Below, one piece after another: positions 1 to 64,000 of a DNA stretch of 64,000 bases (its first letter is position 1; every line of letters begins with the position of its first letter). The position numbers were made by a program, and so were the translations under genes. This DNA comes from a virus. The notes below the pieces were generated by a model. That model was given only the letters and a program-made list of their open reading frames with translations, had not been told where the DNA came from and searched no databases. The stretch lies in the IMG/VR virus record IMGVR_UViG_3300045988_123958; one strand, given 5' to 3'.

Positions 1-920
1 AACAAGAAAAAAAGGAGAAAAAATTATTAACTGATAATCGTATGGCTACAGTTAATAAGCGTGAGACTTCTTTTGAAGGTCTTGTTTCCCAACTCGAAAA
101 TGGCGAAGACGGAATTTATAATTTAATTACAGATAATAGAAATACAATATTTCAACCACATATTACAATTACAAAAAAAGATTTAGAAGAAATACCAAGT
201 TTAAATTAGTTAAGAGAAGCCATTAATGTTTGGGAGGCTAAATTAAAAGTAACAGAAGGTAAAGATGCTTTTGTTATTAAAAAGGCTCTTATTGAAATGC
301 GCAAAGATTAGTATGTTATGAAAAATGCTTATCGTCGTCCAATAGTGCCTACAAAATTAACCAGATCAAAGTCTTATATTCCATTAGATGATAAAACATT
401 TATTTTTGATGATGATGGTTTTCCCATTCCTGATGGAATTAGTTTATTAAGACCTGAAATATGTTCTGCGGTTTTATGTAATTATTCCCGATTAAAACAA
501 GATAGTTGGGGCGAATATGATAAAGACTTATGGTATTTAATGGAGGATTTTGATAAGCTTTGTGATAAAGCTTTAGCTAATTATCCTCTTTATGATAGAA
601 TCGTTGAATATAAAATTGATGGTTTACAAAATATTGACATTCAAGAGAAAATACAAATGGAATTTGGTATTAAACACAGCCTTGAATATATTTCAAGTTT
701 ATGGCGTAATAAAATTCCAAAATTAATTGCTTCGACTGCGGAAGATGAATATTTAGATAATTATTATTTAAATGTTGAAAAAGGTAAATATAAAAAATGT
801 AGTCGTTGTGGTAAAATAAAATTAGCTCATAATAAATATTTTAGTAAAAATAAAACAAGTAAAGATGGCTTTTATAGTATTTGTAAAAGTTGTCGAAATT
901 CTAAGGCCAAAAAATCTTAA
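1..920 (+). CDS. 5'-partial hypothetical protein with C-terminal C4 zinc ribbon (CSRCG...CKSC); TAG-recoded
   Basis: Frame 0 (pos mod 3) is open from nt 1 and joins track ORF 318..920 through two in-frame TAG codons. The ORF likely begins upstream of the window. The Cys-x2-Cys pairs lie near the C-terminus. Confidence 0.5.
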
Positions 921-969
921 TATTGTCCTTTTGTTTATAATAAATAGTTGAAAGGAGAATATTTTATTT

Positions 970-2157
970 ATGGCTGAAACATATTATTGCGAAAAATGTA
1001 ATCGTACAATGAATGGCACGGAATTCTATTCATCTAATAATTTAGAAAAATATCCTAATGATGGTAAATTTCCTGTGTGCAAAAAATGTATGACAATGCA
1101 CGTCGATAATTGGAATCCAGATACTTATTTATGGATTTTACAAGAGGCGGATGTTCCTTATGTTCCAGACGAATGGAATAAACTAATGGAAAAATATGGG
1201 CGCGATCCGCAGTCTATGACCGGTATGACGATTCTTGGACGTTATTTGTCAAAAATGAAACTCAAATAGTTTAAAGATTACCGTTGGAAAGATACAGAAT
1301 TTTTATAGTAGATGGCGAACAATAAATTAGAGCAAACTATGAAACGTCAAGGGTATGATGCTCAATAGATTGCAACCGCTATTGAAAAAAGTTCTATTGC
1401 TATTCCAGAAGGAAAACTAAAAGAGCCGGTTTATGCTCCACCACCTAATGCCCCTACAGAAGATTATTTCGCACAATAGAGTGGTGAAGTGGAACAAGAA
1501 TTAGACTTAACTGATGAAGACCGCACTTATTTAAGACTTAAATGGGGCAAGACTTATAAACCTGAAGAGTGGGTTAAGCTTGAATAGTTGTATGAAGAAA
1601 TGATGGCTTCTTATGATATTCAAGGTGCCGGACATAAAGATACGCTAAAACTAATATGTAAGACATCTTTAAAGGCAAATCAATTGATCGATATTGGTGA
1701 TATTGAAGGTTTCCAAAAGATGAGCAAAGTATACGATAGCTTAATGAAGTCTGGTAAATTTACTGCCGCTCAAAACAAAGCAGAATCAGGTGAATTTGTT
1801 GATTCAATTGGCGAATTAATTGAATTATGTGAAAAAGAAGGATATATTGAAAGATATTATGTTGAATAGCCACATGATAAAGTGGATTTAACTATTCAAG
1901 ATATGCAACGTTATACTCGCACTCTTATTGAAGATGAAACTAATATTAGCACAATGGTAGAAAAGGCTTTACGCGAAAATGCTAAAGAAGATGAAGAGAA
2001 AGCAAAGAACGCGGAAAGCGATATCGTTGATGATGCTGATTTAAGTATTGAAGAACTTGAAAAAACTATTAAAGATAGTGATTACGCGGATTTTGAGGAA
2101 TTTAAAGAATAGGAGTCCGCGCAAGATAATGAGTTCTTATAGAGTTTGGATAAATAA
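970..2157 (+). CDS. Zn-ribbon / acidic C-terminus protein, possible small terminase or DNA-binding packaging protein
   Basis: Track ORFs 970..1269, 1588..1869 and 1882..2112 share the same frame and are separated only by TAG, about 8 in-frame TAG in all. N-terminal CEKCN...CKKC zinc ribbon. Lies immediately upstream of terL; the TAATG overlaps the terL start. Confidence 0.45.
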
Positions 2158-3896
2158 TGGCATTACAAGATTTACTGTAGTTAAGTGATAGCCGTAGAAA
2201 AATAGGGTTATCACCGGAGCGAGTAGAAGCGGTCATGCCCACTATCCGCAAATACGTTGCCTTTTGGAGAGAATATCCTGATTTATTTGTAGATTTTATG
2301 GTTCGAGGAAGACGTACTGAAATAAAAGATGGAGAATTTAACTTTTATTTTTATTAGAGAGTATTTCTCCGTTCTGTTATGCGTTATTAGTATGTTTACG
2401 CGGTTTTTCCTCGTGCTTATTCCAAATCATTCTTGTCTGTTATGGCATTAATGATTAGATGTATTTTATATCCTGGTGCGCATTTGTTCGTTACTTCTGG
2501 AGGTAAAGAACAAGGTGCTAGTATTCTTCATGATAAAGTTCAAGAAATATGTGAACTTATTCCAAGTTTTAATCGAGAAATTGATTGGAGTCGAGGAAAA
2601 ACTCTTGAAGGAAAAGATAAAGTTAGATATGTATTTAAAAATGGTTCAGTTTTGGATAACCTCGCAGCTCGTGAAAGCACTCGTGGTCAGCGTCGTCATG
2701 GTGGATTAATGGAAGAATGTGTTGGTATTGATGATGCCATTCTTCGTGAAGTTATTATTCCTGTTATGGCAATTTCTCGTAGAGCTAAAGATGGCACTAC
2801 TAATGAACAAGAGCCATTAAATAAATCACAAATCTATATTACTACTGCTGGTTATAAGGGCACATTCCCTTATGATAGACTTATTGGTTTCTTAGTTCGT
2901 ATGGTGACTTAGCCTGATCGTTGTATGGTATTAGGCGGAACATGGCGAACTCCTGTTGCGGTAGGATTACAAAGTAAAACATTTATTACTGACCAAAAGA
3001 AGGAAGGAACTTATAATGAGGCTTCATTCGAACGTGAATACGAGTCTAAGTGGTCAGGAACGGTCGAGGATGCTTTCTTTAATGGAGAGCATTTTGATAG
3101 AAATAGAAAACTATTATAGCCTGAATATGAAGCTTCTGGACGTGCGGGTGCGCAAGCTTATTATGTGCTTTCTGTAGATGTAGGTCGTAAAGGATGCGAT
3201 TCAGTAGTTTGTGTATTTAAAGTAACACCACAAGCTCAAGGTCCAGCTATTAAATCTTTAGTAAATATGTATACTATGTCAGATGACCATTTTGAAGATT
3301 AGGCTATTAAATTAAAGAAATTATTTTATAAATATAAAGCTAAAACTTTGGTTATAGACGGTAATGGTTTAGGTATTGGACTTTTAGATTATATGGTAAA
3401 ATCTCAAAATGATGAAGATGGTGAATTTTTACCTGATTTTGGTGTTGAGAATGATGATGATGGGTATTATAAAAAATATCGCACACCAAATACTCAATTT
3501 GATGCTATGTATGTTATTAAAGCAAATGCTCCAATAAATACTGAATGTCATGCTAACGCTCAGACTCAATTACAGGCGGGTAAAGTAAAATTTTTAATAG
3601 ATGAGAGAACAGCTAAAGAAAAATTATTAGCTACTCAAAAAGGTTCAAAAATGACTCCTGAACAAAGGGCAGATTATTTAAAACCATTTACTTTAACCTC
3701 CATATTAAAAGAAGAAATGATGAATTTACGCGAAGAAAATGAAGGTATTAATATTATCCTAAAATAGGCAAATCGCGGAATTCGTAAAGATAAATTTTCG
3801 GCTTTTGAATATGGATTATATTATTTAAAACTTGAAGAAGATAAAAAGAAAAAACGTAAAAAGTTTAATGCGGCTGATTGGTGCTTTTTAAATTAA
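2157..3896 (+). CDS. terL: terminase large subunit
   Basis: ATG at 2157 is in frame with track ORFs 2433..2912, 2925..3119 and 3348..3767 through TAG codons. N-terminal ATPase-like region and a C-terminal RNaseH-like nuclease region (YVLSVDVGRKGCDSVVCVF). End coordinate is approximate. Confidence 0.75.
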
Positions 3897-3908
3897 GGAG
3901 GGTGGAAA

Positions 3909-4265
3909 ATGCGTGCTTCAAGAGGAGAAATTAAAATTGAAGAAATCTTAGAAGAAGCAGGACTACCTTTTAAAATGGAATATATTTTTCCAGATTTAAA
4001 AAGCCCAAGCGGGCGTCCGCTTCGTTTTGATTTTGTTATATTTGATGATGATGGAAAAATTGATTTCATTATTGAGTATTAGGGAAAATAGCATTATGAA
4101 GCCAGTTCTAAATTTGGCGGAAAACGCGGTTTATACCAGTAGCAATATAATGATAATCAAAAAAGACGTTTTTGCGCTTTACATGATTTTAGATTAATAG
4201 AGATTCCATATACCGACGAAAACCTTATTTCTTATGATTATATAATGAAATTAGCAGGTTATTAA
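3909..4265 (+). CDS. PD-(D/E)xK Vsr/DUF559-like endonuclease, putative free-standing homing endonuclease
   Basis: Reading TAG as sense gives about 118 aa with the motif FDFVIFDDDGKIDFIIEYQGKQH (IExxGxxH signature). Located between terL and portal, a classic site for homing-endonuclease insertion. Coordinates approximate. Confidence 0.5.
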
Positions 4266-4278
4266 AGGAGGTGGAACT

Positions 4279-5928
4279 TTGGATACGCAAGATCGTAATG
4301 ATTAGATTCACGCTAAAGGTTTTGATATTTATAATAGTCGTTATGAATATAATTATAATGACACTATGGATTATGCCAATAGAAAAATAAAAGTTGGCAC
4401 AAAAACTTTAGATGATGCTATTTTAAAACTTGGTGATTATAGTAAGATTAGATACCCAGGTCAAACTCGTATTATCACGAAACCTGATGTGCTTCGCGCG
4501 CTCGCAGAAAGAGATTTAAATGCTTTGCGATATATTTCTAATTTTTATTATGACATAAGTGGTGTATATCAACGAGTTTGTAATTATGTTGCTTTTTTAT
4601 ACCGCTATGATTGGTATATTGCGGCCGAAACTTATGATGATAATGTAAAAGAAGAAAAAGTTTTAAAAGATTTTTATAGAATGTTGAATTATTTTGATAA
4701 TAGTTATATTAAAAAGATTTGCGGAGATATTGCTTTACAAGTCGTTAAAAATGGATGCTATTATGGATATATAGTTCCTTCAGAGAAAAATCTAATTTTA
4801 CAAGAATTGCCAGTTAGATATTGTAGAACACGTTATAGTGTAAATAATACCCCAGTTGTCGAATTTGATATGCGATTTTTTGATACTTTTAGAGATATGA
4901 ATTATCGTTTAAAAGTATTAAAATTATTCCCAGAAGAATTTGCTAAAGGTTATGTTTTATATAAGCAAGGAAAACTTGCTTTAGAAGAAGCGGTCGGATG
5001 TCAACACACAGGTAGTTGGTATGTTCTTGAACCAGAAAATTGTGTTAAGTTTAATATTAATAATAGTGATATTCCTATTTTTGTAAACTCTATTCCAACG
5101 ATTATGGATTTGGACGCTGCGCAAGACCTTGACCGCAAGAAACAAATGTAGAAATTACTTAAAATTTTAGTCCAAAAGCTTCCAATGGATAAAAATGGCG
5201 ATTTGATATTTGATGTTGATGAAGCCAGAGATATTCATAATAATGCAGTTTAGATGTTATAGAGGGCTATTGGAGTAGATGTTTTGACTACATTTACTGA
5301 TGTAGATTCTATTGATATGTCTGATAAGAATACTACAACGACTACTGATGATTTAGCAAAAGTTGAACGTAGTGTTTATAATTCATTAGGTATCTCATAG
5401 AATTTGTTTAATACTGATGGTAATATGGCTTTAGAGAAATCTGTATTGAATGATGAATCTACAATAAGAAGTTTAATTTTATAGTTTAATATATTCTTTA
5501 ATAGGATTATTGAAAAAAAGAGTAGTAATAAAAAATATAATTTTAGATTTTATTTATTAGAAACTACTCAAAATAATTATCAAACACTTTCTAAAATGTA
5601 TAAAGAACAAGCGCAAATGGGACAATCAAAACTATTGTCTTAGATTGCTCTTGGACATTCATAGAGTTTTATTCTTAATGCAGCTCATTTTGAAAATGAG
5701 ATTTTACATTTAAGTGAAATTATGATTCCTCCTCTTATGAGTTCTACTATGGGTAGTGAAGATATTTTGGGTTTAAAAGGTTCATCATCTAATAATAAAA
5801 CTCAAAATAATTCAGGAAGTTCAGGTTCTGGAACTGCTAAAACTTCTAATGGTGAGGCAGGACGTCCGGAGAAACCTGATGATTAGAAAAGTGAAAAAAC
5901 TATTCAAAATAAAGAAGCAATGAAATAA
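4279..5928 (+). CDS. portal protein
   Basis: TTG start after AGGAGGTG. Track ORF 4366..5151 extends through many in-frame TAG to a TAA near 5926. About 549 codons, Ser/Gly-rich acidic C-terminus, positioned between terL and the scaffold gene. Confidence 0.6.
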
Positions 5929-5937
5929 GGAGGATTT

Positions 5938-7524
5938 ATGAAACATACAAGTATTAAATTAAATACACCTTGTGAGTTTATAAATATAACTCCTGTAAAT
6001 CCTTTAATTTCTAAATGCCAAATTAAGGTTTGTTATGTAGATGATAAACCTAATCGTAACAAAAGCGTAATTACTAAAGATGTAGCGACTGAGATGGCTA
6101 ATAGCCTTCCGGGCAGTCCTATTGTTGGCTTTTTTAATGAAAATACCGAAGATTTTGAAGAACATAATAGGATAATTGAATTATCTAATGGCGAATTTAG
6201 AATGAGAGATAATACTCGCCCTTATGGTTTTGTTGATCTTGGAGCTAGAGTTTGGTTTTAGAAATTTTTGGATGATGGTGTTGCCGAACGTGAGTATTTA
6301 ATGACTGAAGGTTATTTGTGGACTGGTTAGTATCCTGAATGTAAACGTGTAGTTGATAAAGGGAATAATCATTCTATGGAGCTTGATGAAAAAACATTAA
6401 ATGCTACGTGGGCAAAAGATAGTAATGGAAAGCCTTAGTTTTTTATTATAAATAAGGCAATTATTTCTAAACTTTGTATTTTGGGAGAAGAAAATGAACC
6501 TTGTTTCGAAGGCTCCCAAATCAATGTGAATTTTTCATTCGATGATGGTTTTAAGAACACTTTGTTCTCCATGATGAATGAACTTAAAGAATTTATGAAA
6601 GAAGGAGGACCCAAAGTGTTTACACAATATGCTGTTGAAATTGGCGATAATTTGTGGAATTCTCTCTGGTCTTATGTTGAGACTAAGTATCCTGGCGAGC
6701 CTAGTAGTTATTGTTCTATTTATCGCATTGAAGGTGTTTATGAAGATGCTGGACAAAAGTTTGCTATTCTTCAAAATAGACAAGACCAAAAATATTATCG
6801 CATGGACTTTTCTCTTACCGATGTAGAAGGCTTTGTTCCTTCTGACGCTTTAACTGAAGTAACTAAGTCTTATACTCCGGCAGCAGAGCCTCAGTTTGCT
6901 CTTGCTGATGTTGAAGCTTTTGAGACTGATTATGCTTCAAAGAAAAAGACTGAGGAAGAGGACAAAAATAATAAATCTAATGGCCAAAACCCTGATAATA
7001 AATCAGAGGGCAATGATAATAAAAAGAACCCTGATAATGGGGAACCCTCTAATAAGTCTGATAAAGGCGACAATGGCGAGAATGATGATGATAAAAAGAA
7101 AAAGAAAAATTATTCTCTTGAGGACGTTGTTGAATATACTGAACTTAAAGCTCAGTATGATGAATTACAGACTAAATTCGCGGCTCTTGAAACTGAAAAT
7201 AATAGCTTGAAAGAGCAAATTGCTCCACTTGCTGAATTTAAAAATGCCGCTGAAAAGAAAGATAAAGAAGATATGATTGCTAAATTCTATATGCTTTCTG
7301 ATGAAGATAAGGCTGATGTTGTTGAAAATATTGATAAATATTCTCTTGATGATATTGAAGCTAAATTATCTGTTATTTGTGTTCGCAACAAGGTGAGTTT
7401 CGACCTTGACGAAAATAATAAGCCCAATGGTGCTACTACTTTTAATTTGAACGATAATGGTTCAGAAGATGATGATATGCCCGCTTGGGTGAAGGCGGCT
7501 TTTGCTACCGCCAACAAAAATTAA
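5938..7524 (+). CDS. scaffolding protein (possibly with N-terminal prohead-protease-like region)
   Basis: Track ORFs 5938..6261 and 6481..7524 share a frame and are linked by 3 TAG. Contains an acidic low-complexity K/D/N/E-rich stretch followed by a coiled coil (ELKAQYDELQTKFAALETENNSLKEQIAPL). Sits upstream of the head genes. Confidence 0.5.
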
Positions 7525-7541
7525 TAAGGAGGACATACTAA

Positions 7542-8459
7542 ATGTTTAAAGACTTTTTGAATAAGAATCTTCCTATTAAGTCTCAGGCAAAGTATGTTGA
7601 GTTTGGTTACGGTCAGGTCGAGCCTAATCACCTTTCCGCACAAAGAAATGCTCAAATCTATGCTCAACTTCCTGCCAATAAAGACATTGAGATTCTTGAA
7701 AACGGTCAGTTTGTAAAGTATGACTATGCTGCTAATGGTAATGGTATTGGCGAAGTCAACTTCACTGGCGAAGGTGAATGGATGCTCGTTTATAACGAGA
7801 TTAAGCTTTATCGTGATCATTATGATGGCAGTAAACAGTGGGATTGCGAATTTGCTATGATTAAAGATGACTATCAGGCTCGTGTTTATAGCCCTTATGA
7901 TTGGGAGCATACCGAGGTTGAATATGGTGGTCGTTTCTGGAATGGCGTTGATGAAAAGGGTCAAACCTATAAGTTAATCAATCAGACCGTTTCCGCAGAT
8001 CAAGGTTTAAAGACTGTTACTATTGCTGGTCGTGTTTATGATGTTGATGAAACCGGCAAGTTTACTTATGATGGTAATGAATATACTCTTAATAGTAATC
8101 ATCAAGTTGCCAATGTTCCTGTAAAATATTACTATGATAAGCTTCTTACTGATGTTCCTGATATGTATGAAATGAATTGGACCAATGATCCATATCATAA
8201 GTTAGGTATTTATCATGAGAAGTTCATGGAATCTGGCACCTCTATGGTTCCTCGTGTATTTAAGACCATGATTGGTGATCTTTATACTACTAATATGATT
8301 AATGAAGAGACTCTTGCTGTTGGAGATAAGCTTTCTCCTTCTGCTGCTACAAAGGGTATTCTTAGCAAAACTGGCGACGATTCAATGACCTGGCAGGTTG
8401 TTAAGGTTTATACTATGCCTGATGGTCAAAAGGGCGTCAAGGTAATGCGTATTAAGTAA
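7542..8459 (+). CDS. abundant head protein (major capsid or decoration protein candidate)
   Basis: Intact 305-aa ORF with no TAG at all and GC-richer codon usage (ctt/gct/ggt), unlike neighbouring genes. Strong RBS. Confidence 0.6.
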   Translation: MFKDFLNKNLPIKSQAKYVEFGYGQVEPNHLSAQRNAQIYAQLPANKDIEILENGQFVKYDYAANGNGIGEVNFTGEGEWMLVYNEIKLYRDHYDGSKQWDCEFAMIKDDYQARVYSPYDWEHTEVEYGGRFWNGVDEKGQTYKLINQTVSADQGLKTVTIAGRVYDVDETGKFTYDGNEYTLNSNHQVANVPVKYYYDKLLTDVPDMYEMNWTNDPYHKLGIYHEKFMESGTSMVPRVFKTMIGDLYTTNMINEETLAVGDKLSPSAATKGILSKTGDDSMTWQVVKVYTMPDGQKGVKVMRIK

Positions 8460-8476
8460 GAAAGGAGAAAAGGATA

Positions 8477-9583
8477 ATGTTAGATAAAAATAATTTAATT
8501 GCTCTTATGAAGCAAGTTGCTAAGGCTGATCCTTCTGCTCCTGTTGCTTATAGTTATGAGGGAAAAAATCTTAGTTATGAAGCCTTAAATGAAACTCTTC
8601 GTAATGAAATGAATGAGTTGGCTGGTACTTACGCTCTTTATCGTGAAAATAAGAATCTTATTTTCTCTATGATTGAGCAGACTCTTGATGAGGTTCTTCC
8701 TAAGAAAGTTATTCAGCAATATGATCAGTTTGCTGAGGTTAAGACTTTCGCTCAGGGTGATAAGCCTATTTTCCGTCGTCCTCTTAATAATCGTGCTCGT
8801 GCTAAGCAGTTTGTAACTCGCGTTGGTCTTGCTGGTATTTATGAAGTCTTCAAGCTCGGACCTAAAGAGAATGAAGCCTTCGAGGTACGTACTAGCGCTA
8901 TCGGCGGAGCTGCTTAGATTGGCTTCGAAGAGTTCCTTGATGGTCGTGTTGATTTCGGTGAAGTAACCAAAATCATCATGGATGGTATGGATGAACTTAT
9001 TTATAAAGAAGTCGCTGCTGCTCTTAGATCTTCTATCAACCAGCTTCCTCCTGCTAACCGCGTTGCGGCTGCCGGATTTGATGAAGCTGCTATGGATCGT
9101 TTGATCACTATTGCTTCTGCTTATGGTACTCCTACTATTTATTGTACTTATGAGTTTGCTGTTAAGATGATTCCTCATGAGGCTTGGAGATATACTGAAG
9201 CTATGAAGAATGAGCTTTGGAATAATGGTCGTCTTGCTACCTACAAGGGCACTAAGGTTATTATTCTTGAGCAGGGCTTTGAAGATGAAACCAATACTCG
9301 TAAGGTTATTGATCCTGGTTATGCTTGGGTTATTCCTACGGGCGCTGATGGTAAGCCTGTAAAGATTGCTTTCGAAGGCGGAACTATTGTTGACGAGTTC
9401 AATAATTATGATCGTTCTCGTGAGATTCAGGTTTACAAGAAGGTTGGCGTAGTTTGTATGCTTGCTAATAATATCTGTGCTTATGTTGATACTTCACTTC
9501 TTGGTCAGATGTATACTTGGAATTATGATGGAGTCACCGGTAAGGTTATCACTTATGATGGCCGTCTTGATGGCACTGTTTAA
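8477..9583 (+). CDS. major capsid protein candidate
   Basis: Track ORFs 8477..8917 and 8978..9583 share a frame and are joined by a single TAG. 368 codons, high-expression codon usage, followed by a strong terminator. Confidence 0.55.
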
Positions 9584-54615: not shown

Positions 54616-54627
54616 ATAAAAAAAATA

Positions 54628-55099: not shown

Positions 55100-55156
55100 A
55101 AAAAATACCTCCTTCCACTTAACTTCTAATATATTTTAAAAGAAGGGAAGGAGGAT

Positions 55157-55690
55157 TATTTATTTAAGGCCTATTTATTACTCCCAATTAAAATCATTAT
55201 TGGAACTTTCTTTCGTGAAATATGCGGTATATAAACATATGGCATCACATATATCGTCATTGGCTTTTATATTATATTTTTGCTATACAAAATCAATATC
55301 AGCTTGTTTAAGAGTTTCACGTTTAATACTGCGACCGGTTTTAATTCCGAGTTTTTTGCGCCATTCACTTGCCTACATCAGCTCTAATGTTTTGGAAGTA
55401 AATGAAGAATTAACTCCATGGGCGCCTAACATTACTGCGCCTTGAAGCCACATTAATAAACGTGAAGTATCAGAATATCCATAAGTTTCAGGATGAACAT
55501 CTTCCGCTACTATCTTCTCTATATTATATTTTTTTACTAATTCAATAATCTAATCTTGTATTTTTTGTATTCTATCTAAATTATTAGAGGAAACCGCGGT
55601 TAGCAGTCCATAATCTAACATTTCTCCCTCATTATTAGATACACAATAACCAGTAGATTTAGTGGACAAATCTAAAAAGAGGATATTCAA
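55157..55690 (-). CDS. RuvC-like Holliday junction resolvase
   Basis: TTG start after a GGAGGTAATTAC RBS. 177 codons with 4 in-frame TAG. Contains ILFLDLSTKSTGYCV near the N-terminus and DDICDAICLYTAYF near the C-terminus. No piece is long enough to appear in the ORF track. Confidence 0.55.
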
Positions 55691-55723
55691 GTAATTACCT
55701 CCTTTCTTTAAGGTTTGAGGTAA

Positions 55724-56242
55724 TTACTTTGAAGTTGAACCAAATCCTCCAAGGCGGTCACCAGAAGCATTATCGTCTTCGGTGATTAAATAAGGTTTAA
55801 TAATACCTTGACCAATAACATCACCTTTATGAAGTTGAATATCAAAAGGAGATAAATTAATCATTTGAAAATAAATATGTCCTTCATTATCAGGATTATT
55901 ATAATAGTCTGCGTCAATAATCCCAACGCCATTAGCAAGAATAAGCCAATATTTTAAAGGACAAGAACTGCGAACTGATAATTCAAGATATGTATTATCA
56001 TTTAATTCACATTTAATTCCAGTAGGCACAAGAGTTGGTTTTGCTTTAAGATTTTTTGTCATATTACCCATATCTTCAAGAGAGATTGAATCAAAATAAC
56101 GTGTTGGAAATCTATTTAGCAAATTCTTATATGCTGGAATTACAACATCTTCTGCTACTGTAAAATCATAGCCTGCGGATTTCGCTGTTTTTCTTACGGG
56201 CAAAACCGCGTCTGGATATTTGCTTACTCGTTCAAACTTCAT
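55724..56242 (-). CDS. dut: dUTP diphosphatase
   Basis: Intact 172-aa ORF with SAGYDF, GVGIIDADYY and GDRLGGFGSTSK motifs. Confidence 0.8.
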   Translation of the reverse strand: MKFERVSKYPDAVLPVRKTAKSAGYDFTVAEDVVIPAYKNLLNRFPTRYFDSISLEDMGNMTKNLKAKPTLVPTGIKCELNDNTYLELSVRSSCPLKYWLILANGVGIIDADYYNNPDNEGHIYFQMINLSPFDIQLHKGDVIGQGIIKPYLITEDDNASGDRLGGFGSTSK

Positions 56243-56490
56243 TAAAAGCTTACCTCATAATTTACATTAATATTACTAATAGGATCTTTTTCATCATTGA
56301 ATTTTTTAACAAGAGTGACTTGATACCATTCATCGACAATTTCGCCCTTAGCCTTTTTTTCTTTCTTCACTGAACTATACTTAGCTAAAATATATTTAGT
56401 TTCAGCCTTAGCCTCATCAATAAGCGCGGCCGCACTTTCCTCATTATCTACACGATAAACTTCTGTAGCACTTACAAGATACTTATTCAT
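56242..56490 (-). CDS. hypothetical protein
   Basis: Intact 82-aa ORF, tightly packed in the operon. Confidence 0.5.
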   Translation of the reverse strand: MNKYLVSATEVYRVDNEESAAALIDEAKAETKYILAKYSSVKKEKKAKGEIVDEWYQVTLVKKFNDEKDPISNINVNYEVSF

Positions 56491-56750
56491 TAACCTACCT
56501 CAACTTTAATTTCTTTTCTATTGGAATAATTTAAACTATTACTTTCATAAATTTTTGGAATTAATTCATTAATAAAATCTTCAATACCATATAAACGTAT
56601 AGTATCAGTATTATTCTTATAACAAGATGCTACTAAAACATTTGGAAGATCAGGAATACTACAAGTTCCAATACTTACTGCCATTCCATCATCATAAGTT
56701 TTAAAAACATTTTGTTCCATTGAAAATAAATTAATATTACAAACAATCAT
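56490..56750 (-). CDS. hypothetical protein
   Basis: Intact 86-aa ORF, contiguous with its neighbours. Confidence 0.5.
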   Translation of the reverse strand: MIVCNINLFSMEQNVFKTYDDGMAVSIGTCSIPDLPNVLVASCYKNNTDTIRLYGIEDFINELIPKIYESNSLNYSNRKEIKVEVG

Positions 56751-57284
56751 TTAATTACACTCCACAATACCAGCATCATATTGGAATAAATAAAAACAAT
56801 AAGATTCATTATCAATATTTATCCAAATTTCAATAGCATTATCATTATTTTTTTCCCAACCAACAATACTTCCTAATTCTTGGCAAAGTATAATTACCAT
56901 ACTCGCTACAGAACCAGTTGAAATAATTGGAGGAATATTTTTGTGAAAAATGGTATAATAATTATAATCTTTACATAATAACATATAATACATTCCATAT
57001 TCACTTATTTCATTAATACTACTCATTAATTTATTTAATTCTTCTTCATTAATTGGATCCATTTGTATCATAATATTTTTATTAAAATCATATAAATTCA
57101 TTCCAGTTTGAAATGTAGTAGAATTATCTGACAAATTATTAGTAGTAGTTCCTATCATTACCCATTCATTTCCAGTGTAACAATATTGTTTCTGATCTTC
57201 ACCAGAAATGGCAATAGTTCCTTCTTCGAATTTACGAGGAGAATTATATAATTCTCCCATCGTATTAGTATAAAAAACATTCAT
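56751..57284 (-). CDS. hypothetical protein
   Basis: Intact 177-aa ORF. Confidence 0.55.
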   Translation of the reverse strand: MNVFYTNTMGELYNSPRKFEEGTIAISGEDQKQYCYTGNEWVMIGTTTNNLSDNSTTFQTGMNLYDFNKNIMIQMDPINEEELNKLMSSINEISEYGMYYMLLCKDYNYYTIFHKNIPPIISTGSVASMVIILCQELGSIVGWEKNNDNAIEIWINIDNESYCFYLFQYDAGIVECN

Positions 57285-57365
57285 TGTTATATAATCTCCT
57301 ATCTATTTCATAGAAAAATTATATCACAAATTTTCTTTTTTGTCAAGTTTTAAATTAATAATGTT

Positions 57366-57818
57366 CTAATTGCGGGAACCGCGTAAAGGTAAAGTAATAT
57401 CTCTTTCCTTTTGGATATATGGTCCATCAATTAGATAATCAGCGGTTTTTAATATATTCTTAATTCTAATATTATTACTATTCTTCAAATCATCATAAAC
57501 ATATCCAGTCCATATATATATTTTAATGTTTGGATATATTTTTTTAATTTCAGTAATAATTAAATTAGTTAAAAATTCATTTTCAGGGCAGAGAGGCTCT
57601 CCACCCATAATACAAAGATTACGCTCAACATTATTCGCATTAATAGCAGTAATTAATTCATCTAATACTTTATTAGTGAATTCTTTACCACCATTAAAAT
57701 CCCACGTTTCGGGGTTTTGGCACCCTTCACAATGGTGCGGACACCCTTGTGTAAAAAATGATACACATACTCCGGGTGCCGCTGCCAAATCATTCTTTAT
57801 AATTCCTGCATATTTCAT
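57366..57818 (-). CDS. nrdG: anaerobic ribonucleotide reductase activating protein (radical SAM)
   Basis: CPHHCEGC (Cx3Cx2C) motif; overlaps the end of nrdD. Confidence 0.8.
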   Translation of the reverse strand: MKYAGIIKNDLAAAPGVCVSFFTQGCPHHCEGCQNPETWDFNGGKEFTNKVLDELITAINANNVERNLCIMGGEPLCPENEFLTNLIITEIKKIYPNIKIYIWTGYVYDDLKNSNNIRIKNILKTADYLIDGPYIQKERDITLPLRGSRN

Positions 57819-60085
57819 TCTAACACTCCTGTATGTTTCACTCTTGCTTCAACTTCTTTTTGTTTACCCCAGTTAAAAGCAGTTTTATAATTGCCTGTAA
57901 GATAACCAGTCACACGACGCAATTGTTGAATATTGTGGCTTCCGCACACAGGACAAGAATCATTAAACTCATCACAATAACCACATTCAAGGCAAGTATC
58001 ATTAGGAACATTTACTGCGAAATAAGGAATATCGTGGTCCATTGCATAATTAACAATAGTTTCAAGAGCATCAATATTGTGTTTTACAGTAGAATCAAGT
58101 TCAACATAAGTAATACATCCTGCGGATGAATAGCCAGTCAGCTCAGATTCAATATCAATTTTTTCAAACGGACTCATTTCTTTCCACACTGGAACATGAA
58201 TACTATTAGTGAAAAATTCTCTATCACTAACATTAGGAATAATTCCATACCTTTCTTTAAATTTTGTCATAGCAGTATAACATAAATTTTCTGCGGGTGT
58301 ATAATAAACTCCAAAATTTAATTTATATTTTTCTTTATACTCGGCGCATCTATCTTTAAATAATTGTTCAATTCGTTTAGCTAATTCCATTCCTTCTGAA
58401 GTGGTGTGGTCTTTACCAATAAGAATTTGAAGAGTTTCAGCTAAACCTAACTGACCAATAGCAAGAGTTCCGTGCTTAAGAGCGGAACGAATTCCTTCTT
58501 CTGGAATATAACCTGCCATAACGTTATTTTCATACATAAATTTCGCGGAGCCTGGGTCTTGAGAGCAAATCCATTCAAAACGTTCCATTAATTGGATACG
58601 TGCTTCATTGATTTTTCTATCAAGTAAAGACATAAATCGTTCTACACCAATTTTAGTCCGTTCTTCTTGGGACAACGATTTATAGTCCTCCCAATTATCA
58701 TTTTCGTTTAGGGTAACGGCCATCATCGCAAGAGTTGGAAGAATAATAGTAACTGGACAAATATTTCCACGTCCATCTTTAAGCTGGCCGAATCCATTGA
58801 TATCCCAGCCGTTTGCGGTTCTACATCCCATTGTAGAAAAATAAGTGCGAGGATCATTAATATCATATCCCGCATTACCAGACCAATCAACATTTGCATA
58901 ATTAGGATAAAGGCGTCTCGCGGTGCTTTCTAATGCTAATCTATATAAATCATAGTTAGGATCACCTAATTTGCGGTTAACCCCTTTCATACATTGGAAA
59001 ATTCCACAAGGAAAAATTGAAGTTTTATGTAATTTACCAAGACCTTCAATAGAAACATCTAATAACGCCTTAGTTACCATTCTGCCTTCAGGTTTAGTAC
59101 AAGTGCCATAGTTAATACTTGTAAATGGTAATTGATTGCCACTACGAGATTGTAAAGTATTAAGATTATGATAAAGACCTTCTGCAGCTTGATGAGTTTC
59201 GCGAGTAGTCATTTTCATAGCATATTTATATGCTTTTGGAAATGATTTATAAAAATCATCATCAATAGGAGTTTCTTTACTATAACAACCATCATATTTG
59301 CTCATATCTAATCCTTCATATAAAAATTCAATACCATCATTGAAATGTTTAAAGAAAGATTTTCTTACATAAGGAACCATAGTCCAATCTAAATGAGTAG
59401 CACTAACTCCACCAAACTAACAAAGACTTTGGATTTGAAAAATAACAGCAATTAATTGAAACGCTGTATTAATTGAACCCGCAGGACGAACATCAGCTTG
59501 ACGAGTATTAAATCCATTAGTGAGTAAATCATCAAAGGGAATACTTAAACAATTATGAGAACCAACATAATAAGAATCAAGGTCATGAGTATATATCATA
59601 TTATCAATATGATTCTTACGAGCCATAGGGGAAAGTAAGTAATCAAGTGCAAGTTGTTTGGTGACAACACTACTTGCTTCACCTATACGGCCACCAAATG
59701 AATGTTCATCAACATTAGCATTTTGATTTTTTACATTATTACCATCGAGCTTTTCACGAATTGCTTTAATAAAATCATCTTTTTTATTACGAGCAACTTC
59801 TTTTTTATATCTATATCTGATATAAGCACGAGCAACATCGCGTCGCTCAGAACGCATTAAATAATCTTCAATCCAATCTTGAAGATCTTCTACTCCAACG
59901 CTTCCATCAGGGAAATGATTTATTTGTCTTTCAATGTCTTCCGCGATATCTTTCGCAGTATCATCTTCATATAGTTTACCATCAACTTCAATAAATGCTT
60001 TATTTATTGCGTTAATAATTTTCTTTTTATTAAATTGAGTTATACTTCCATCACGTTTAATAATATACAATTTTTTTGCCTCCAA
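57815..60085 (-). CDS. nrdD: anaerobic ribonucleoside-triphosphate reductase (single gene read through one TAG)
   Basis: Track ORFs 59417..60085 (ATP-cone N-terminus) and 57815..59380 are in the same frame, with a TAG at 59417-19 and a 12-codon open linker. C-terminal Zn ribbon CLECGYC...CPVCG and glycyl-radical motif RVTGYL. Confidence 0.85.
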
Positions 60086-60144
60086 ACTAAATATAGTAGT
60101 TCTTTTAGAATATTCTACTATATTTAGATTTTGTTAGTAAATAA

Positions 60145-60750
60145 TTATTTATCTTGGTCCATTTCCGCCCATTGCTTAACTCTTTGAGTTAAAAGATTAA
60201 CAATATTATTATAATCTTCTAATGTTTCATTTGTCACAATATTGCACTTAATATCATTCATTAGTTGAAATTGAATTTCATCAGTAGTATATCTTCTAAT
60301 AATTTCATTTACATCAGGATTTTCTTCTCTGTTTAATTGCCTAATTAAACGTGTCTTTCCTTTAGCGGTGATATAATATATCTCCAATTCAATTCTATCA
60401 TCTTTAAGAAGACTTATAATTCCTTCGGGATTAAAAACACCAATATTAACTTTACTATCAGACAAACTATCAATACTTGTGCCATAATACCAATTATTAA
60501 AAGAAGTGGTTTCTAACATTTTATTTTCATCAATTAAAGTTAAAAACTAATCATCTGAAACAAAATGATAATTTTTATCTGCTATTTCTTTTTCACGCTT
60601 TGGGCGCGTAGTGTGGCTTATAATAGGATTTAGATATTCTTCTAATTGGGAAAAGGTAGCCATCATTAGGCTATCTTTTCCTGCACCAGATTTTCCACAT
60701 AATGCAATAATTTTATACATCTTCTTCAATTCCTCCTTGATAACGAGCAT
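60145..60750 (-). CDS. gmk: guanylate kinase (read through one TAG)
   Basis: Track ORFs 60547..60750 (P-loop GKSGAGKDS, TTRPKRE, HFVS) and 60145..60519 (NWYYGTS) are in the same frame, separated by a TAG at 60547-49. Confidence 0.8.
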
Positions 60751-62190
60751 CTTTTAAAACTAAATCGCCATTGGATAAAATTTCATCAATTTTATATAAT
60801 TGATGCCCTCCAGAAGAAGCATATTTTTTTGACATGAAATTATCTCCATTGCGGATTCCAGAGACTACAATCATATTTCCGCGATTAAACCAAGATTTTT
60901 CAACAATATGTTTGGTTCCATCTGCACCGCGCTCTGAAATTTGTTTATCAAACAAACTAAAATATTCTTTTCTAAACTTTACTTCTACAGGACCAGTAGT
61001 AGTAAGAATGGTTACAGTGCTTTTAGTTTTATTTTTGGCAATACAAGTTCCGCAAATTTTAAATAACTTATAAATATGAATAGTATGATTTCCTTTGGTA
61101 AAACTTCTATCAATTATTGGATCTTCTGGAAGCTTAAAGAAATCTACAAATCCATATTTATCATTGTTAATATTGTTCAATTCATGAGTATGATAATAAT
61201 AACAAAGAACTTCCATTTCCCAGGCGGATAAATTATTTTTATTAGCGTATTTATCCCAATCATCTTTAAATATTTTTATATTCAGATTATTCAAAATTTC
61301 ATCTTTATTATTAGCAATCCAAGTGCGGAATATGTCCATCCACTTTTGGTATATACCATTCCAAACATTTTCACTTAAAGAATAATTAGTTCCATCAAAT
61401 TGAATATTATTATCTTCTCCAATTTCTACTAAAAAATTAATGGCTCGTTCATCAAGTTGATATAGACCATTATTTTTTGTAGTTTTACAAATTGCTTTTA
61501 AATATCTATTAAATTCATAAATACGGCGAGCCATAATTTGATTTTCATTTTCTTCTGGAAGAAGATCATACTTCATAAGTCCGCCCATATTTTGAAGAGT
61601 AATTCTTTTCTTTTTGTCGCAGGTTTCCCAAATATACCAAATCATTAATTCTTTTCTATCCATCATATTATCAAAGGCTCCACCTTTAATAAGAGAAATC
61701 ATAGCTTGTTTACCTGGCTTAATACGATATAAAAATTCTTTAGGATTTGAATAAGGACGATTAGCAATGATTGTATTAACTAATTCATCACCAACATTTA
61801 GCATACCTTTTAATCCAAAAAGAATTTTATTATTTTCAATATCAGGGGCAAATCCAAATTTAGATTTGTTAATATCAGGAAGACCTACTTCAATTCCTGC
61901 TTTTTGAATATCACTAATAGCCTTGGCAATTTTTCCATAATCGGTGGCTGCGGTTTTGCGGATTTTGCCACTTTTGTCAGGAAGATCTTCAAATGTTACT
62001 CCATTAGCTAAATCATCGCCTTCAGGAGCATAAATATCGACAATCTCTTCTTCGCTATTATCTTCAAGGGAACCACTATTAACAATTAAACAAGCGGTAT
62101 CCCAATAGATAGGATTAAAATGAATTACTAAGTAAATCATTTGAATTGCTACAAATGAATAAGGTAGACTATGATTTAAACTAAATGCAT
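60713..62190 (-). CDS. dnaE: DNA polymerase III alpha subunit (DnaE-type), exon 2
   Basis: Track ORF 60713..62203. The region DAFSLNHSLPYSFVAIQ aligns with the conserved GYGFNKSHSAAYALVSYQ motif. The first four track codons (MRIT) are inferred to be intronic. Confidence 0.7.
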
Positions 62191-63331
62191 CAGTTATTCT
62201 CATATTTCTATGAGGGCTGGACTATCTTTTACTATAATATATATAAATTATAGCACACCATTTCGAACTACGTATCAATAGTAGTCCTACTTCCGGTCTC
62301 ACCCGGAATAGTCTCTACAATATTTATCTTAATGGATATTTTAAATTTTCGTCTTTATCAATAGCACCTATATTAACTCTACGCACTGTTTCATCAGATG
62401 TTCCAGTTAATTTTACAATATCTTTATATAGGAGATTAGTATTTAATAAATATTCTTTTATTAATTGTCTTTTATATTTTTGTGGAGTTATTTTTCTAAT
62501 AGGATATTCGCCTTTATAATATCCTTTTTGCAATGTTCCATAATTAAATTTTTTAATAGTTGATTCTCCTAAATTATATCGTTGTGCTAGTTCTTTAAAA
62601 GTTAGTTCAGGTTTTATTAAATCTTCAATTAAAGCATCATAAATATCATTAGAAATTCGATATCTACATAAAGGATATATTTCTTTTTTATTATAAAAAT
62701 ATTTTCCAGAATTGATACCTGAAATAAAAGTTTTAGATATGGGATAATATTCTTGTATTTTTGAATAAGATGTTTCATCTTTAATCATTATTTTTATCTT
62801 TTCAACATCTTCTTGTGTTAAAAAAGACTTCCAACTATTATTTCCGCCTTCTAAAACATTATATCCCCATTGAGTTAATAAACTTTGTTCTTTTTTAATC
62901 CAATAACTTTCACGTTCATTTACTAAATCATATGTTTTAGCATCTGTTATAATTTCAATAATTTCAATTTTAAAATTGTCATATCCATATTTACGAATTG
63001 CTTGATGGATTTTATCATTATAATTTACACTATTAGGATTAAAAGAACAACTTTTATGTTCATTAACTCTTCTTTGAAAATTATTAGTCTAACCTATATA
63101 TTTTTTATTATTAATTAAATTCGTATATTTATAAATATAAAATATCATTTTATTTCTCCTTTAAAATATATTAAAGGACCATTAAGACATTTATCACGGG
63201 ATTGGTATATATTAATGATTCCTTCATTAATACTTAACTTTCCCCGTTAGCAAATTAATAAGTTTAGCCCCAAAAAGGGCTATTAATTTACCCCTGTGAT
63301 AACAGGTTAGGTGTGTAAGGGCAAGCTATTT
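62191..63331 (-). mobile_element. group I intron (about 1,141 nt) carrying a GIY-YIG homing endonuclease gene, inserted in dnaE
   Basis: Exon 1 ends with ...UUAGGGU, which pairs with the internal guide GCCCUUA at 63316-22, giving a U.G pair at the 5' splice site. The terminal G at 62191 precedes exon 2 (AUGCAUUU). The splice gives the in-frame sequence ...PQLG-Y-AFSLNHS. Confidence 0.65.
62324..63148 (-). CDS. GIY-YIG homing endonuclease (intron-encoded)
   Basis: ATG after AAAGGAG. MIFYIYKYTNLINNKKYIG[TAG]TNNFQRRVNEHK continues in frame into track ORF 62324..62788. About 274 codons. The TAG falls at the canonical YIGQT position. Confidence 0.75.
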
Positions 63332-64000
63332 ACCCTAATTGAGGAGCAACTGCAATTTCCCAAAAGTATTCAGCAGATTTTTCATTATCAAATTTACTAA
63401 ATACTTGTTCTTTTAATTGTGGAATTTTAGCCATTTGCTTTTTAGCAACAATCTTACGCGCAGTATTAGCTTCACCAAGAGTAAAATGAGCTACATCCAT
63501 AAGAATTTCCATCATTTGCTCTTGAATAGGACAACATCCATAATATTTATCACAATGCTTATGCATCTTATCAATTAATTCTTGCGGAAGATGCTGAGCC
63601 TTCATTTCATCATCAAATACTTTAATACCCGAATGTTGAATGCGATAATATCTATCTTGCTGTGATTCCTTACCTTTTTCAGACATAAGACGCATCATAG
63701 CATTGGCCGCCGTCATTTCCATAGGGTCTTGGGGTTTAAGGCGTTTTGCTATTGCCAAACCGACTCCTGTAGAAAATTGGAATACATCTAATACATCACC
63801 AGCAGCAAGGTGGTCCCAAATTGCTTGATCAGTTGTATCTATTACTTCTGGATGAATATATTTATTATAAAATTCTCGTAAAGATAATTCTGGAACCTAC
63901 TTATCTTTTAGAAGTAATTGATAACAAGTAATAATTTTATCAGAAGCTTCAGTTACAAGGAAGTCATATTTTGTGTCTCCAGCAGCTTCCGCTTTATGAA
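63332..64000 (-). CDS. dnaE: DNA polymerase III alpha subunit (DnaE-type), exon 1, 5' portion outside the window
   Basis: Track ORF 63330..63758 (FTLGEANTARKIVAKKQ finger-like region). The frame continues upstream through a TAG and includes a KYDFL motif. Confidence 0.65.

What the first reader, a model, noticed from the sequence alone, without database searches (positions are those of the whole stretch)
1..64000. Genome-wide reassignment of the amber codon TAG to a sense codon (probably Gln)
Conserved enzymes are single genes only if TAG is translated. NrdD is split by a TAG at 59417-19 between its ATP cone and catalytic barrel. Gmk is split between its P-loop half and its NWYYGTS half. RuvC, the LytTR regulator, TerL, the portal and the tape measure protein all run across same-frame track ORFs separated only by TAG, while TAA and TGA still end genes. 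In the GIY-YIG endonuclease, TAG sits exactly where the canonical motif YIGQT has Gln. Both the late (+) and early (-) modules use the recoded codon.
Basis: partly seen in the sequence, partly recalled or inferred. Interest (0 to 1): 0.8.

Follow-up and report, generated by a model that had tools for sequence, protein, structure and literature searches.

The report
Gut phage reads TAG as glutamine

Summary
With TAG as a sense codon the window resolves into 49 tightly packed genes (93.5% coding). They contain 267 in-frame TAGs in 41 genes, and all end in TAA (39) or TGA (10). ORFs of at least 150 aa cover 43% of the window under code 11, 93% with TAG as sense, and 44% with TGA as sense. Single Pfam domain matches run across the TAGs in NrdD, Gmk, NrdG and GIY-YIG.

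TAG means Gln. In seven standard-code relatives, 144 of 245 residues opposite window TAGs are Gln (log-likelihood −435.7, against −718.6 for the next best). In close relatives TAG exchanges mainly with CAA and CAG.

The window is positions 1525-65524 of a 130 kb human-gut contig. It belongs to a ~190-197 kb SPbeta/EF1-like siphophage clade that is abundant in metagenomes. The window has no tRNA. Every 94-97% identical relative examined carries a tRNA(CUA) with a Gln-like acceptor end about 70 kb past the window, followed directly by an HDV-like ribozyme-like element. No release-factor gene was found.

TAG density rises from 0.7 per 1000 codons in the earliest genes, to 2-5 in replication genes, to 15 in virion genes. 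The most abundant virion proteins avoid TAG.

This matches published code-15 gut phages (Borges 2021, Peters 2022, phAss-1 2023, Kienbeck 2024). It is a new member of a known kind.

The parts
1..54636 (+). Virion, packaging and lysis-side gene block read in code 15: 36 genes with 254 in-frame TAGs (15.2 per 1000 codons; 35% of all Gln positions are written TAG).
   Evidence: Precomputed Pfam on the identical contig gives YonG_N, YonD_N, YonB, YomW, YomV_2nd, YomU_Tube and PhageMin_Tail.
2157..3896 (+). Large terminase (579 aa, 7 in-frame TAG).
   Evidence: tblastn gives 44-47% identity over 88-93% of its length to Enterococcus, Geobacillus and Alicyclobacillus phage records; the gene is annotated terminase large subunit in Enterococcus phage H1 and Geobacillus E3 and hypothetical protein in the others. 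Opposite the TAGs the hits have Q3 K2 R1 and Q2 R2 K1 T1.
4366..5928 (+). Portal protein (520 aa, 8 TAG).
   Evidence: Aligns to the annotated portal proteins of VRE9_4 and E3.
16566..24785 (+). Tape measure protein (2739 aa, 77 in-frame TAG, no TAA or TGA).
   Evidence: PhageMin_Tail on the identical contig. Aligns to the VRE9_4 and E3 tape measure proteins.
38809..46554 (+). Giant tail/fibre-region protein (2581 aa, 28 TAG).
13549..14532 (+). Tail tube protein (YomU_Tube) with no TAG. It is one of five abundant-virion-protein genes that avoid TAG; the others are 7542-8459, 8477-9583, 9671-10264 and 12218-12799.
   Evidence: These five genes have at most 1 TAG in 47 Gln codons, P about 4e-8.
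54671..63998 (-). Replication and nucleotide-metabolism block, sparsely recoded: 12 of the window's 13 minus-strand genes (the thirteenth is the response regulator at 50754-51470); the 13 together hold 13 TAGs, 4.0 per 1000 codons.
57815..60133 (-). Anaerobic ribonucleotide reductase NrdD with one in-frame TAG.
   Evidence: The Pfam NRDD match is a single stretch over model positions 2-562 of 562 and crosses the TAG. Solved homologs have Q, Q and M at that position. On a short contig called under code 11 the gene splits into 222 + 521 aa.
59417..59419 (-). The in-frame TAG codon of NrdD.
60145..60750 (-). Guanylate kinase-like protein with one in-frame TAG.
   Evidence: Guanylate_kin matches as a single stretch over 3-172 of 182, across the TAG. 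Solved homologs have Asp or Glu there.
57324..57818 (-). NrdG activase with one TAG near the C-terminus.
   Evidence: Fer4_12 matches 4-137 of 137 across the TAG.
62324..63148 (-). GIY-YIG homing endonuclease (TAG directly after 'YIG') inserted between two DnaE ORFs.
50754..51470 (-). Response-regulator-like protein (one TAG at residue 17).
   Evidence: Response_reg, E=3e-8. LytTR is not confirmed.

Best explanation
The window is part of a ~190-197 kb SPbeta/EF1-like tailed phage of the human gut that uses genetic code 15, in which UAG means glutamine and UAA and UGA remain stops.

Shown here:
- UAG is a sense codon in 41 of the window's 49 genes.
- The amino acid is Gln.
- All close relatives examined encode a tRNA with a CUA anticodon in a tRNA cluster about 70 kb beyond the window, on the same strand as, and upstream of, the replication genes.
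- That tRNA has an unpaired 1:72 position plus G73 at its acceptor end. From established knowledge of tRNA identity, this is the tRNA-Gln signature.
- The tRNA is followed within 1-2 nt by a conserved HDV-like (theta-type) ribozyme-like element.

Inferred:
- The host uses the standard code.
- After infection the phage tRNA(CUA) is transcribed and its 3' end is released by the ribozyme.
- A host enzyme charges it with Gln, either GlnRS or GluRS followed by GatCAB.
- It competes with host RF1 at UAG, so TAG-containing genes are translated in full only once the suppressor has accumulated.

The TAG gradient fits a timing or dosage role: 0.7 per 1000 codons in the earliest genes, 2-5 in replication genes and 15 in virion genes. 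Avoidance of TAG in the most abundant virion proteins fits incomplete suppression efficiency.
For: Sense reading: (ORF lengths, 93.5% coding density, TAG-specific effect). Single Pfam stretches run across TAG.

Gln identity:
- two cultured standard-code phages, Q 24%, log-likelihood -246.8 against -267.5 for E, with the same profile as true CAA/CAG codons.
- seven standard-code relatives, Q at 144 of 245 aligned residues, log-likelihood -435.7 against -718.6.
- TAG exchanges mainly with CAA and CAG. Across 746 aligned positions the counts are CAA 257, CAG 72 and TAG 171.

Suppressor tRNA:
- a CTA-anticodon tRNA in all of L153-L162, L200 and L201, scoring 52-56 bits against Rfam tRNA.
- The positive control on phAss-1 worked.
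- Acceptor-end features are; unconstrained folding gives cloverleaves.

Ribozyme-like element.

TAG gradient and avoidance.

Literature with the same model: bioRxiv 10.1101/2021.08.26.457843, PMC9523058, PMC10607447, PMC10879173.
Against: - The tRNA(CUA) was not seen in the window, nor on the window's own 130 kb contig, which ends about 6 kb short of it. It is inferred from relatives 94-97% identical in the structural region.
- About 45 kb of the reference 194 kb genome was never scanned.
- Replication genes (NrdD, NrdG, Gmk, DnaE, RuvC-like) carry a few TAGs, so a strict 'late-only switch' is too simple.
- The ribozyme match is below Rfam's gathering score (26-28 bits against 44).
- The charging enzyme and the host are unknown.
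- One tRNA allele (type B) has an extra hairpin in its variable region that is atypical for tRNA-Gln.
- There are no protein-level data for this phage.
Confidence: 0.93

Rival explanations
1. TAG is reassigned to an amino acid other than Gln. Candidates are Tyr, Ser or Leu through a class II suppressor, Glu or Lys, or pyrrolysine.
For: ARAGORN labels the CTA tRNAs 'Pyl'. The type B allele is 90 nt with an extra variable-region hairpin, and its nearest paralogue is tRNA-Tyr, though only at 64% identity. At some single sites homologs have Asp/Glu, Ser or Met rather than Gln.
Against: The likelihood strongly favours Gln over all 19 alternatives. Tyr, Ser and Leu are rare opposite TAG: 0, 5 and 5 of 245. 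TAG exchanges with CAA/CAG equally in lineages carrying type A (36 of 49 changes) and type B (35 of 54). Both alleles have the mismatched 1:72 pair plus G73, not the G1-C72 of Tyr, Ser and Leu tRNAs. 'Pyl' is only ARAGORN's default name for a CTA anticodon.
Confidence: 0.03
2. TAG is still a stop codon. On this view the apparent long ORFs are pseudogenes of a decaying element, low-level readthrough products, or assembly and sequencing artefacts.
For: Under code 11 the genes are fragmented. Short contigs in public data are indeed called that way, for example NrdD as 222 + 521 aa in L009.
Against: There are 267 in-frame TAGs and no in-frame TAA or TGA across 19,940 codons. TAG positions are conserved in independent assemblies from many samples (171 TAG=TAG matches; 50-105 per relative). 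Essential genes (TerL, portal, tape measure protein) are affected, yet the clade is abundant and diverse, with 7,527 TerL homologs. A dedicated tRNA(CUA) is present.
Confidence: 0.01
3. The reassignment belongs to the host: the phage simply mirrors a bacterium that itself reads TAG as Gln.
For: The host is unknown. The relatives sit in MAG bins of many phyla. TAG also occurs in replication genes.
Against: The earliest genes almost lack TAG, with 1 in 1,395 codons, and the phage carries its own tRNA(CUA). Close family members use the standard code, and the cultured relatives infect standard-code Bacillota. Published surveys predict standard-code hosts for such phages, apart from code-25 cases. 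The MAG placements are mutually inconsistent, which points to mis-binning.
Confidence: 0.03

Closest known systems
phAss-1 / proposed 'Phassvirus' group (OQ749652; NCBI 'Caudoviricetes code 15 clade'; Babkin et al. 2023, PMC10607447)
   Same: A human-gut siphophage of the same broad EF1/SPbeta-like lineage (TerL 45% identical). TAG is read as Gln in TerL, portal, tape measure protein and other genes. tRNA-Sup(CTA) genes sit in a large tRNA cluster on the replication-gene strand, there is no dedicated synthetase, and standard-code relatives exist in the same group.
   Different: This clade is larger (~190-197 kb against 133-138 kb) and only distantly related; megablast finds no match for the window's first 20 kb (1-20000). 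It has one suppressor slot rather than 2-3 genes. That slot holds exchangeable tRNA bodies (types A and B) with a conserved 3' ribozyme-like element. No tRNA-Gln(UUG/CUG) was seen in the close relatives' clusters.
TAG-recoded gut phage clades of Borges et al. (Lak, crAss-like, Agate, Sapphire, Jade, Garnet, Amethyst, Topaz; bioRxiv 10.1101/2021.08.26.457843)
   Same: [quoted passage not shown] Recoding is concentrated in structural and lysis genes and variable in replication genes. Suppressor tRNAs are present, the code varies within clades, and several clades have 150-210 kb genomes with Firmicutes hosts.
   Different: No RF2 or 'code-change module' was found in the parts scanned.
crAss-like phages with experimentally verified code 15 (Peters et al. 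2022, PMC9523058)
   Same: The same reassignment (TAG to Gln), shown there by metaproteomics (abstract).
   Different: A different order (Crassvirales, podovirus-like, Bacteroidota hosts). No proteomic evidence exists for the present phage.
tRNA-associated theta (minimal HDV-like) ribozymes of gut phages (Kienbeck et al. 2024, PMC10879173)
   Same: An HDV-like element begins directly at the 3' end of a viral tRNA, here the suppressor. In that study one in five associated tRNAs is a suppressor.
   Different: Here it is only a sub-threshold Rfam match to RF02682 (26-28 bits against 44). Self-cleavage and the double-pseudoknot fold were not tested.

Membership tests
Genetic code 15 phage (TAG = Gln; TAA and TGA = stop) | In-frame TAG in conserved genes, with gene fragmentation under code 11 that is relieved only by reading TAG as sense. 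| tested here: met
   coverage 0.43 rises to 0.93, and TGA-sense gives 0.44.
Genetic code 15 phage (TAG = Gln; TAA and TGA = stop) | TAG positions correspond to Gln in standard-code homologs. | tested here: met
   Q at 24% and 59% of aligned residues, and Gln is the maximum-likelihood amino acid by 20.7 and 283 log units.
Genetic code 15 phage (TAG = Gln; TAA and TGA = stop) | TAA and TGA are kept as terminators. | tested here: met
   All 49 genes end in TAA (39) or TGA (10), and no in-frame TAA or TGA occurs.
Genetic code 15 phage (TAG = Gln; TAA and TGA = stop) | Phage-encoded suppressor tRNA with a CUA anticodon. | tested here: inconclusive
   Absent from the window and from its own contig as far as that was read. 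Present in all 12 loci from close relatives that cover the site. Borges et al. detected it in only about 40% of TAG-recoded genomes, so it is common but not strictly defining.
Genetic code 15 phage (TAG = Gln; TAA and TGA = stop) | Gln actually incorporated at UAG (protein-level evidence). | not testable with these tools
   Needs proteomics or an in vitro translation assay.
SPbeta/EF1-like large siphophages | Shared structural module (YonG, TerL, portal, YonD, YonB capsid, YomW, YomV, YomU tube, very long tape measure protein) in conserved order. | tested here: met
   Precomputed Pfam families on the identical contig. Collinear tblastn matches to Enterococcus phage VRE9_4 and Geobacillus E3.
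Theta (minimal HDV-like) ribozyme next to a viral tRNA | An HDV-like fold whose cleavage site abuts the tRNA 3' end. | tested here: inconclusive
   Full-length but sub-threshold RF02682 matches start 1-2 nt after both tRNA alleles. The element is 98-100% conserved and occurs once per locus. Fold and cleavage were not tested.
Pyrrolysine decoding system | tRNA-Pyl architecture together with pylS and pylBCD genes. | tested here: not met
   The tRNAs fold as ordinary cloverleaves with normal D and T arms. The residues opposite TAG have the profile of Gln. pyl genes were not specifically searched for.

The most novel reading that the evidence does not exclude
In this clade the suppressor locus may be a modular 'code-switch cassette'. 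A fixed promoter-distal slot between tRNA-Val and tRNA-Tyr has a conserved theta-type ribozyme at its 3' edge. Unrelated CUA-anticodon tRNA bodies have been swapped into this slot, including a 90-nt form with an extra variable-arm hairpin but a Gln-like acceptor end. This happens in a phage that otherwise lacks any tRNA-Gln. If the two alleles differ in charging route or efficiency, for example adaptation to hosts with GlnRS versus GatCAB, the clade would be a natural experiment on how a phage retunes its code switch to different hosts. The TAG gradient (early 0.7, middle 2-5, late 15 per 1000 codons) and the TAG avoidance in capsid and tube genes would then be its quantitative read-out.
Probability: 0.2. 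Interest if true: 0.55.

Novelty: new member of a known kind. Interest (0 to 1): 0.3.

Why it matters
For annotation, code 11 shatters this phage's genes. NrdD becomes 222 + 521 aa, and the tape measure protein alone carries 77 in-frame TAGs that would each read as a stop, so any pipeline has to use table 15 here. Mis-binned copies of this low-GC phage are also deposited as 'Mollicutes', 'Treponema' and other MAGs.

For biology, it adds a large and abundant SPbeta/EF1-like gut phage lineage to the list of code-15 phages. The family contains both recoded and standard-code members, shows a clean early-to-late TAG gradient, and has a single suppressor slot with interchangeable tRNAs and a ribozyme-like 3' element. 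That makes it useful material for testing the 'recoding as a timer of late gene expression' hypothesis. It does not reveal a new principle.

Tried and rejected
- Megablast of window 1-20000 against 50,697 GenBank phage records found no match.
- Pfam on 10 structural proteins gave essentially nothing. The informative families came from precomputed hits on the public contig.
- Rfam at gathering threshold found nothing in the window.
- tRNA scans of the window, its 3' flank, the region upstream of TerL and four successive 10 kb steps through IMG/VR relatives were all empty. The first tRNA cluster found had no CTA anticodon. The suppressor appeared only in the second cluster.
- ARAGORN's 'tRNA-SeC(tca)' at L153/L154 8804-8883 was rejected: it lies inside an ORF, has a mismatched acceptor stem, and has no Rfam support.
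It gave no hit in close relatives and only a weak hit in the unrelated L115.
- Host assignment through species-representative genomes placed the phage in bins of many phyla, which was judged to be mis-binning.
- Two attempts to recover the suppressor region from the window's own sample returned contigs from other samples.
- A permissive Rfam scan found no group I intron at the DnaE/GIY-YIG junction.

Full report
**What is in the window.** The window is 64,000 bp with 30.5% G+C. It has no tRNA gene and no Rfam match at gathering threshold. Under the standard bacterial code the longest stop-to-stop frames are about 530 codons. If TAG alone is treated as sense they become 2747, 2582, 1155, 986 and so on. 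Treating TGA or TAA as sense has no comparable effect. ORFs of at least 150 aa cover 43% of the window under code 11, 93% with TAG as sense and 44% with TGA as sense.

Read this way the window tiles into 49 genes at 93.5% coding density. A virion and packaging block lies on the + strand up to 54.6 kb. A replication and nucleotide-metabolism block lies on the − strand from 54.7 kb. These genes contain 267 in-frame TAGs in 41 genes, no in-frame TAA or TGA, and all end in TAA (39) or TGA (10).

- The NrdD TAG is exactly at 59417-59419.
- Pfam matches run across TAGs as single stretches: NRDD positions 2-562 of 562, Guanylate_kin 3-172 of 182, Fer4_12 4-137 of 137, and GIY-YIG.
- The NrdD TAG lies inside the catalytic domain, not between the domains.
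- The regulator is confirmed only as a receiver domain, and the RuvC match is sub-threshold.
- A short public contig of the same phage, called under code 11, shows NrdD as 222 + 521 aa. That is the expected artefact.

**Provenance.** The window is 100% identical to positions 1525-65524 of a 130,275 bp human-gut metagenome contig, ENA ERZ913377 k127_37263. The public protein collection already holds the full-length, TAG-readthrough versions of its proteins. TerL has more than 7,500 homologs there. IMG/VR holds many 94-99% relatives on contigs of 181-197 kb, which is probably the genome size.

Precomputed Pfam families (YonG_N, YonD_N, YonB, YomW, YomV, YomU_Tube, PhageMin_Tail) mark it as an SPbeta/EF1-like siphophage, as do collinear matches to Enterococcus phages VRE9_4, H1 and EF1 and to Geobacillus E3. 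No GenBank phage record is close at the nucleotide level. The closest named recoded relative is phAss-1, with TerL 45% identical. NCBI files phAss-1 under 'Caudoviricetes code 15 clade'.

**Which amino acid.** I put X at every TAG so that no residue was favoured.
1. Against two cultured standard-code phages, 96 TAG positions aligned: Q 24%, E 14%, R 10%, K 9%. This is almost the same as the profile of the window's own CAA/CAG codons (Q 22%, E 11%, K 10%, R 9%). An empirical likelihood over the 20 amino acids puts Gln first, at −246.8 against −267.5 for Glu.
2. The species-representative genome scan returned 20 relatives. Seven of them gain nothing from reading TAG as sense (Δ coverage ≤0.09; the known standard-code controls give 0.01-0.02), so they are standard-code members of the same family. 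In those seven, 144 of 245 residues opposite window TAGs are Gln. The log-likelihood is −435.7 against −718.6 for the runner-up, and Gln is the majority residue at 34 of 54 distinct sites.
3. At the codon level, across all 20 relatives the partners of window TAGs are CAA 257, TAG 171, CAG 72, GAA 42 and AAA 32. In 94-97% identical genomes the changes are again mainly TAG↔CAA. TAG to CAA needs two substitutions, so the bias only makes sense if the exchange is synonymous.

Single sites are less telling. At the NrdD TAG, solved homologs have Q, Q and M. At the Gmk TAG they have Asp or Glu. At the GIY-YIG TAG, I-TevI has Ser.

**Decoding machinery.** The window has no tRNA, so I walked outward through 94-100% identical IMG/VR relatives in 10 kb steps. 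The reference was contig 3300045988_118866 (194,412 bp). A positive control on phAss-1 recovered 33 tRNAs including its CTA suppressor.

After about 50 kb without any tRNA, a small cluster appeared (Ser, Leu, Gly, Lys, Cys ± Thr, Ser, Met) with no CTA anticodon. Infernal confirmed this. About 15 kb further on lies a second cluster of up to 18 tRNAs. It contains a tRNA with anticodon CTA between tRNA-Val and tRNA-Tyr in every relative examined: ten IMG/VR loci and two independent ENA and Logan assemblies. The Rfam tRNA scores are 52-56 bits. In window coordinates this is about 134.5 kb, roughly 70 kb beyond the window and about 6 kb beyond the end of the window's own contig. For this exact strain the suppressor is therefore inferred, not seen.

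Two different tRNA bodies occupy the slot: type A (73 nt) and type B (90 nt, with an extra small hairpin in the variable region). A third form occurs in L161. All of them have a mismatched or weak 1:72 pair and a G73 discriminator, as do the suppressors of more distant relatives and of phAss-1. From established knowledge of tRNA identity, this is the tRNA-Gln acceptor signature and not that of Tyr, Ser or Leu tRNAs. Lineages with type A and type B show the same TAG↔CAA/CAG exchange, 36 of 49 and 35 of 54 changes respectively. Some more distant relatives have tRNA-Gln(UUG) directly upstream of the suppressor. The close relatives show no tRNA-Gln at all.

Starting 1-2 nt after the tRNA, both alleles are followed by a 56-nt element. 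It is 98-100% conserved, occurs once per locus, and gives a full-length but sub-threshold match to an HDV-like ribozyme (RF02682, 26-28 bits against a gathering score of 44, E≈0.02). This is the arrangement described for theta ribozymes next to viral suppressor tRNAs (PMC10879173). No release-factor homolog was found in the DNA fetched from close relatives.

**Pattern of use.**

| Gene class | TAG per 1000 codons | Source |
|---|---|---|
| 15 small ORFs transcribed divergently from the terminase operon (presumed earliest genes) | 0.7 (1 TAG against 35 CAA/CAG) | |
| Replication / nucleotide block | about 2-5 | |
| Virion block | 15.2 (35% of Gln positions) | |

Within the virion block, the likely most abundant proteins (YonB capsid-like, YomU tube, YomW and two neighbours) have at most 1 TAG in 47 Gln codons (P≈4e-8) and are enriched in CAG. 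This fits a suppressor that competes with RF1. On that view TAG-rich genes are expressed fully only once the tRNA has accumulated, and TAG is selected against where translation efficiency matters most. These last steps are inference.

**Comparison with what is known.** Stop-codon recoding of TAG to Gln in gut phages is established.
- Borges et al. found it in diverse clades, including ~150-210 kb Firmicutes phages. They reported late-gene enrichment, variable recoding of replication genes, TAG suppressors detected in about 40% of recoded genomes, and mixed codes within clades (bioRxiv 10.1101/2021.08.26.457843).
- Peters et al. verified code 15 by metaproteomics in crAss-like phages (PMC9523058).
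- Babkin et al. described phAss-1 and its relatives, which belong to the same broad lineage as this phage (PMC10607447).

The present phage reproduces all of these features. What is specific to it is modest: a distinct, larger and very abundant lineage, one suppressor slot with interchangeable tRNA bodies, and a conserved ribozyme-like 3' element.

**Rivals.** All were considered and found unlikely.
- Another amino acid, or pyrrolysine, is excluded by the likelihoods and by the tRNA architecture.
- Pseudogenes or artefacts are excluded because the effect is specific to TAG, the TAG positions are conserved across samples, and the clade is abundant.
- A recoded host is unlikely given the TAG-free earliest genes, the phage's own suppressor and the standard-code relatives.

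**Verdict.** The observation and the interpretation are both correct. The case is a new member of a known kind, and interest is low to moderate.

Noticed in passing
window 60713-63998 (- strand) and L008 5359-11491: The DnaE polymerase is encoded in three ORFs (PHP/pol3_alpha, 425 aa; finger, 313 aa; HHH_6 C-terminal part, 496 aa). They are separated by a NUMOD3 and a GIY-YIG homing-endonuclease gene. A permissive Rfam scan found no group I intron at the GIY-YIG junction, so whether these are introns, or the polymerase is made as split subunits, is open.
   Followed up: partly
window 7542-8459, 8477-9583, 9671-10264, 12218-12799, 13549-14532: Five genes for probably abundant virion proteins (including the YonB capsid-like and YomU tube proteins) have at most 1 TAG in 47 Gln codons (P about 4e-8 at the late-gene rate). 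They use CAG unusually often. This suggests selection against the recoded codon where expression is highest.
   Followed up: yes
L045 38-7516 (about 0.3-7.8 kb upstream of the window start): Fifteen small ORFs transcribed divergently from the terminase operon hold 1 TAG in 1,395 codons and all end in TAA or TGA. They look like standard-code-compatible earliest genes.
   Followed up: yes
L153 7453-7581; L154 7442-7587; L200 11610-11755; L201 8480-8625: The suppressor slot holds different tRNA bodies in different close relatives: 73 nt type A, 90 nt type B with an extra variable-region hairpin, and a 72 nt form in L161. The 56 nt that follow are 98-100% conserved and give a sub-threshold HDV-like ribozyme match (RF02682).
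   Followed up: partly
L164, L169, L172, L178, L179, L180, L182: Family members with 47-71% protein identity to the window appear to use the standard code, since they gain no coverage from reading TAG as sense. Recoding is therefore patchy within this phage family.
   Followed up: yes
L164-L183 (GTDB species-representative genomes): Contigs of this phage family are deposited inside MAGs labelled Bacteroidales, Treponema, Mollicutes/Tenericutes, Lachnospiraceae, Erysipelotrichaceae, Gastranaerophilales and others. L168 is a 164 kb 'Mollicutes' contig with 98% TerL identity. This is almost certainly mis-binning of low-GC phage DNA.
   Followed up: partly
L129 3788-5905 and L153 194-8188 (reference contig about 13.9-39.7 kb): Close relatives carry roughly 20-26 tRNA genes in two clusters separated by about 15 kb of tail-fibre-like genes, yet none of them has a tRNA-Gln(UUG/CUG). 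Small basic ORFs, an AAA ATPase, and HNH and GIY-YIG genes are interspersed among the tRNAs.
   Followed up: partly
L047 136-1491: A lysin-like gene (lysozyme-like plus amidase-like, 452 codons stop to stop) on the replication-gene strand carries 9 in-frame TAGs. That is far above its neighbours and is consistent with lysis genes being heavily recoded.
   Followed up: no
L153 and L154 8804-8883: ARAGORN calls a 'tRNA-SeC(tca)' here. It lies inside an ORF, has acceptor-stem mismatches and is not supported by Rfam, so it is regarded as a false positive.
   Followed up: yes
window 57815-60133 (5' end): The NrdD ATP-cone lies upstream of the first ATG, so the gene probably starts at a TTG (codon 'LEAKKLYIIKRDG'). 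The public gene call of 680 aa, which starts at the first ATG, would truncate the ATP-cone.
   Followed up: partly
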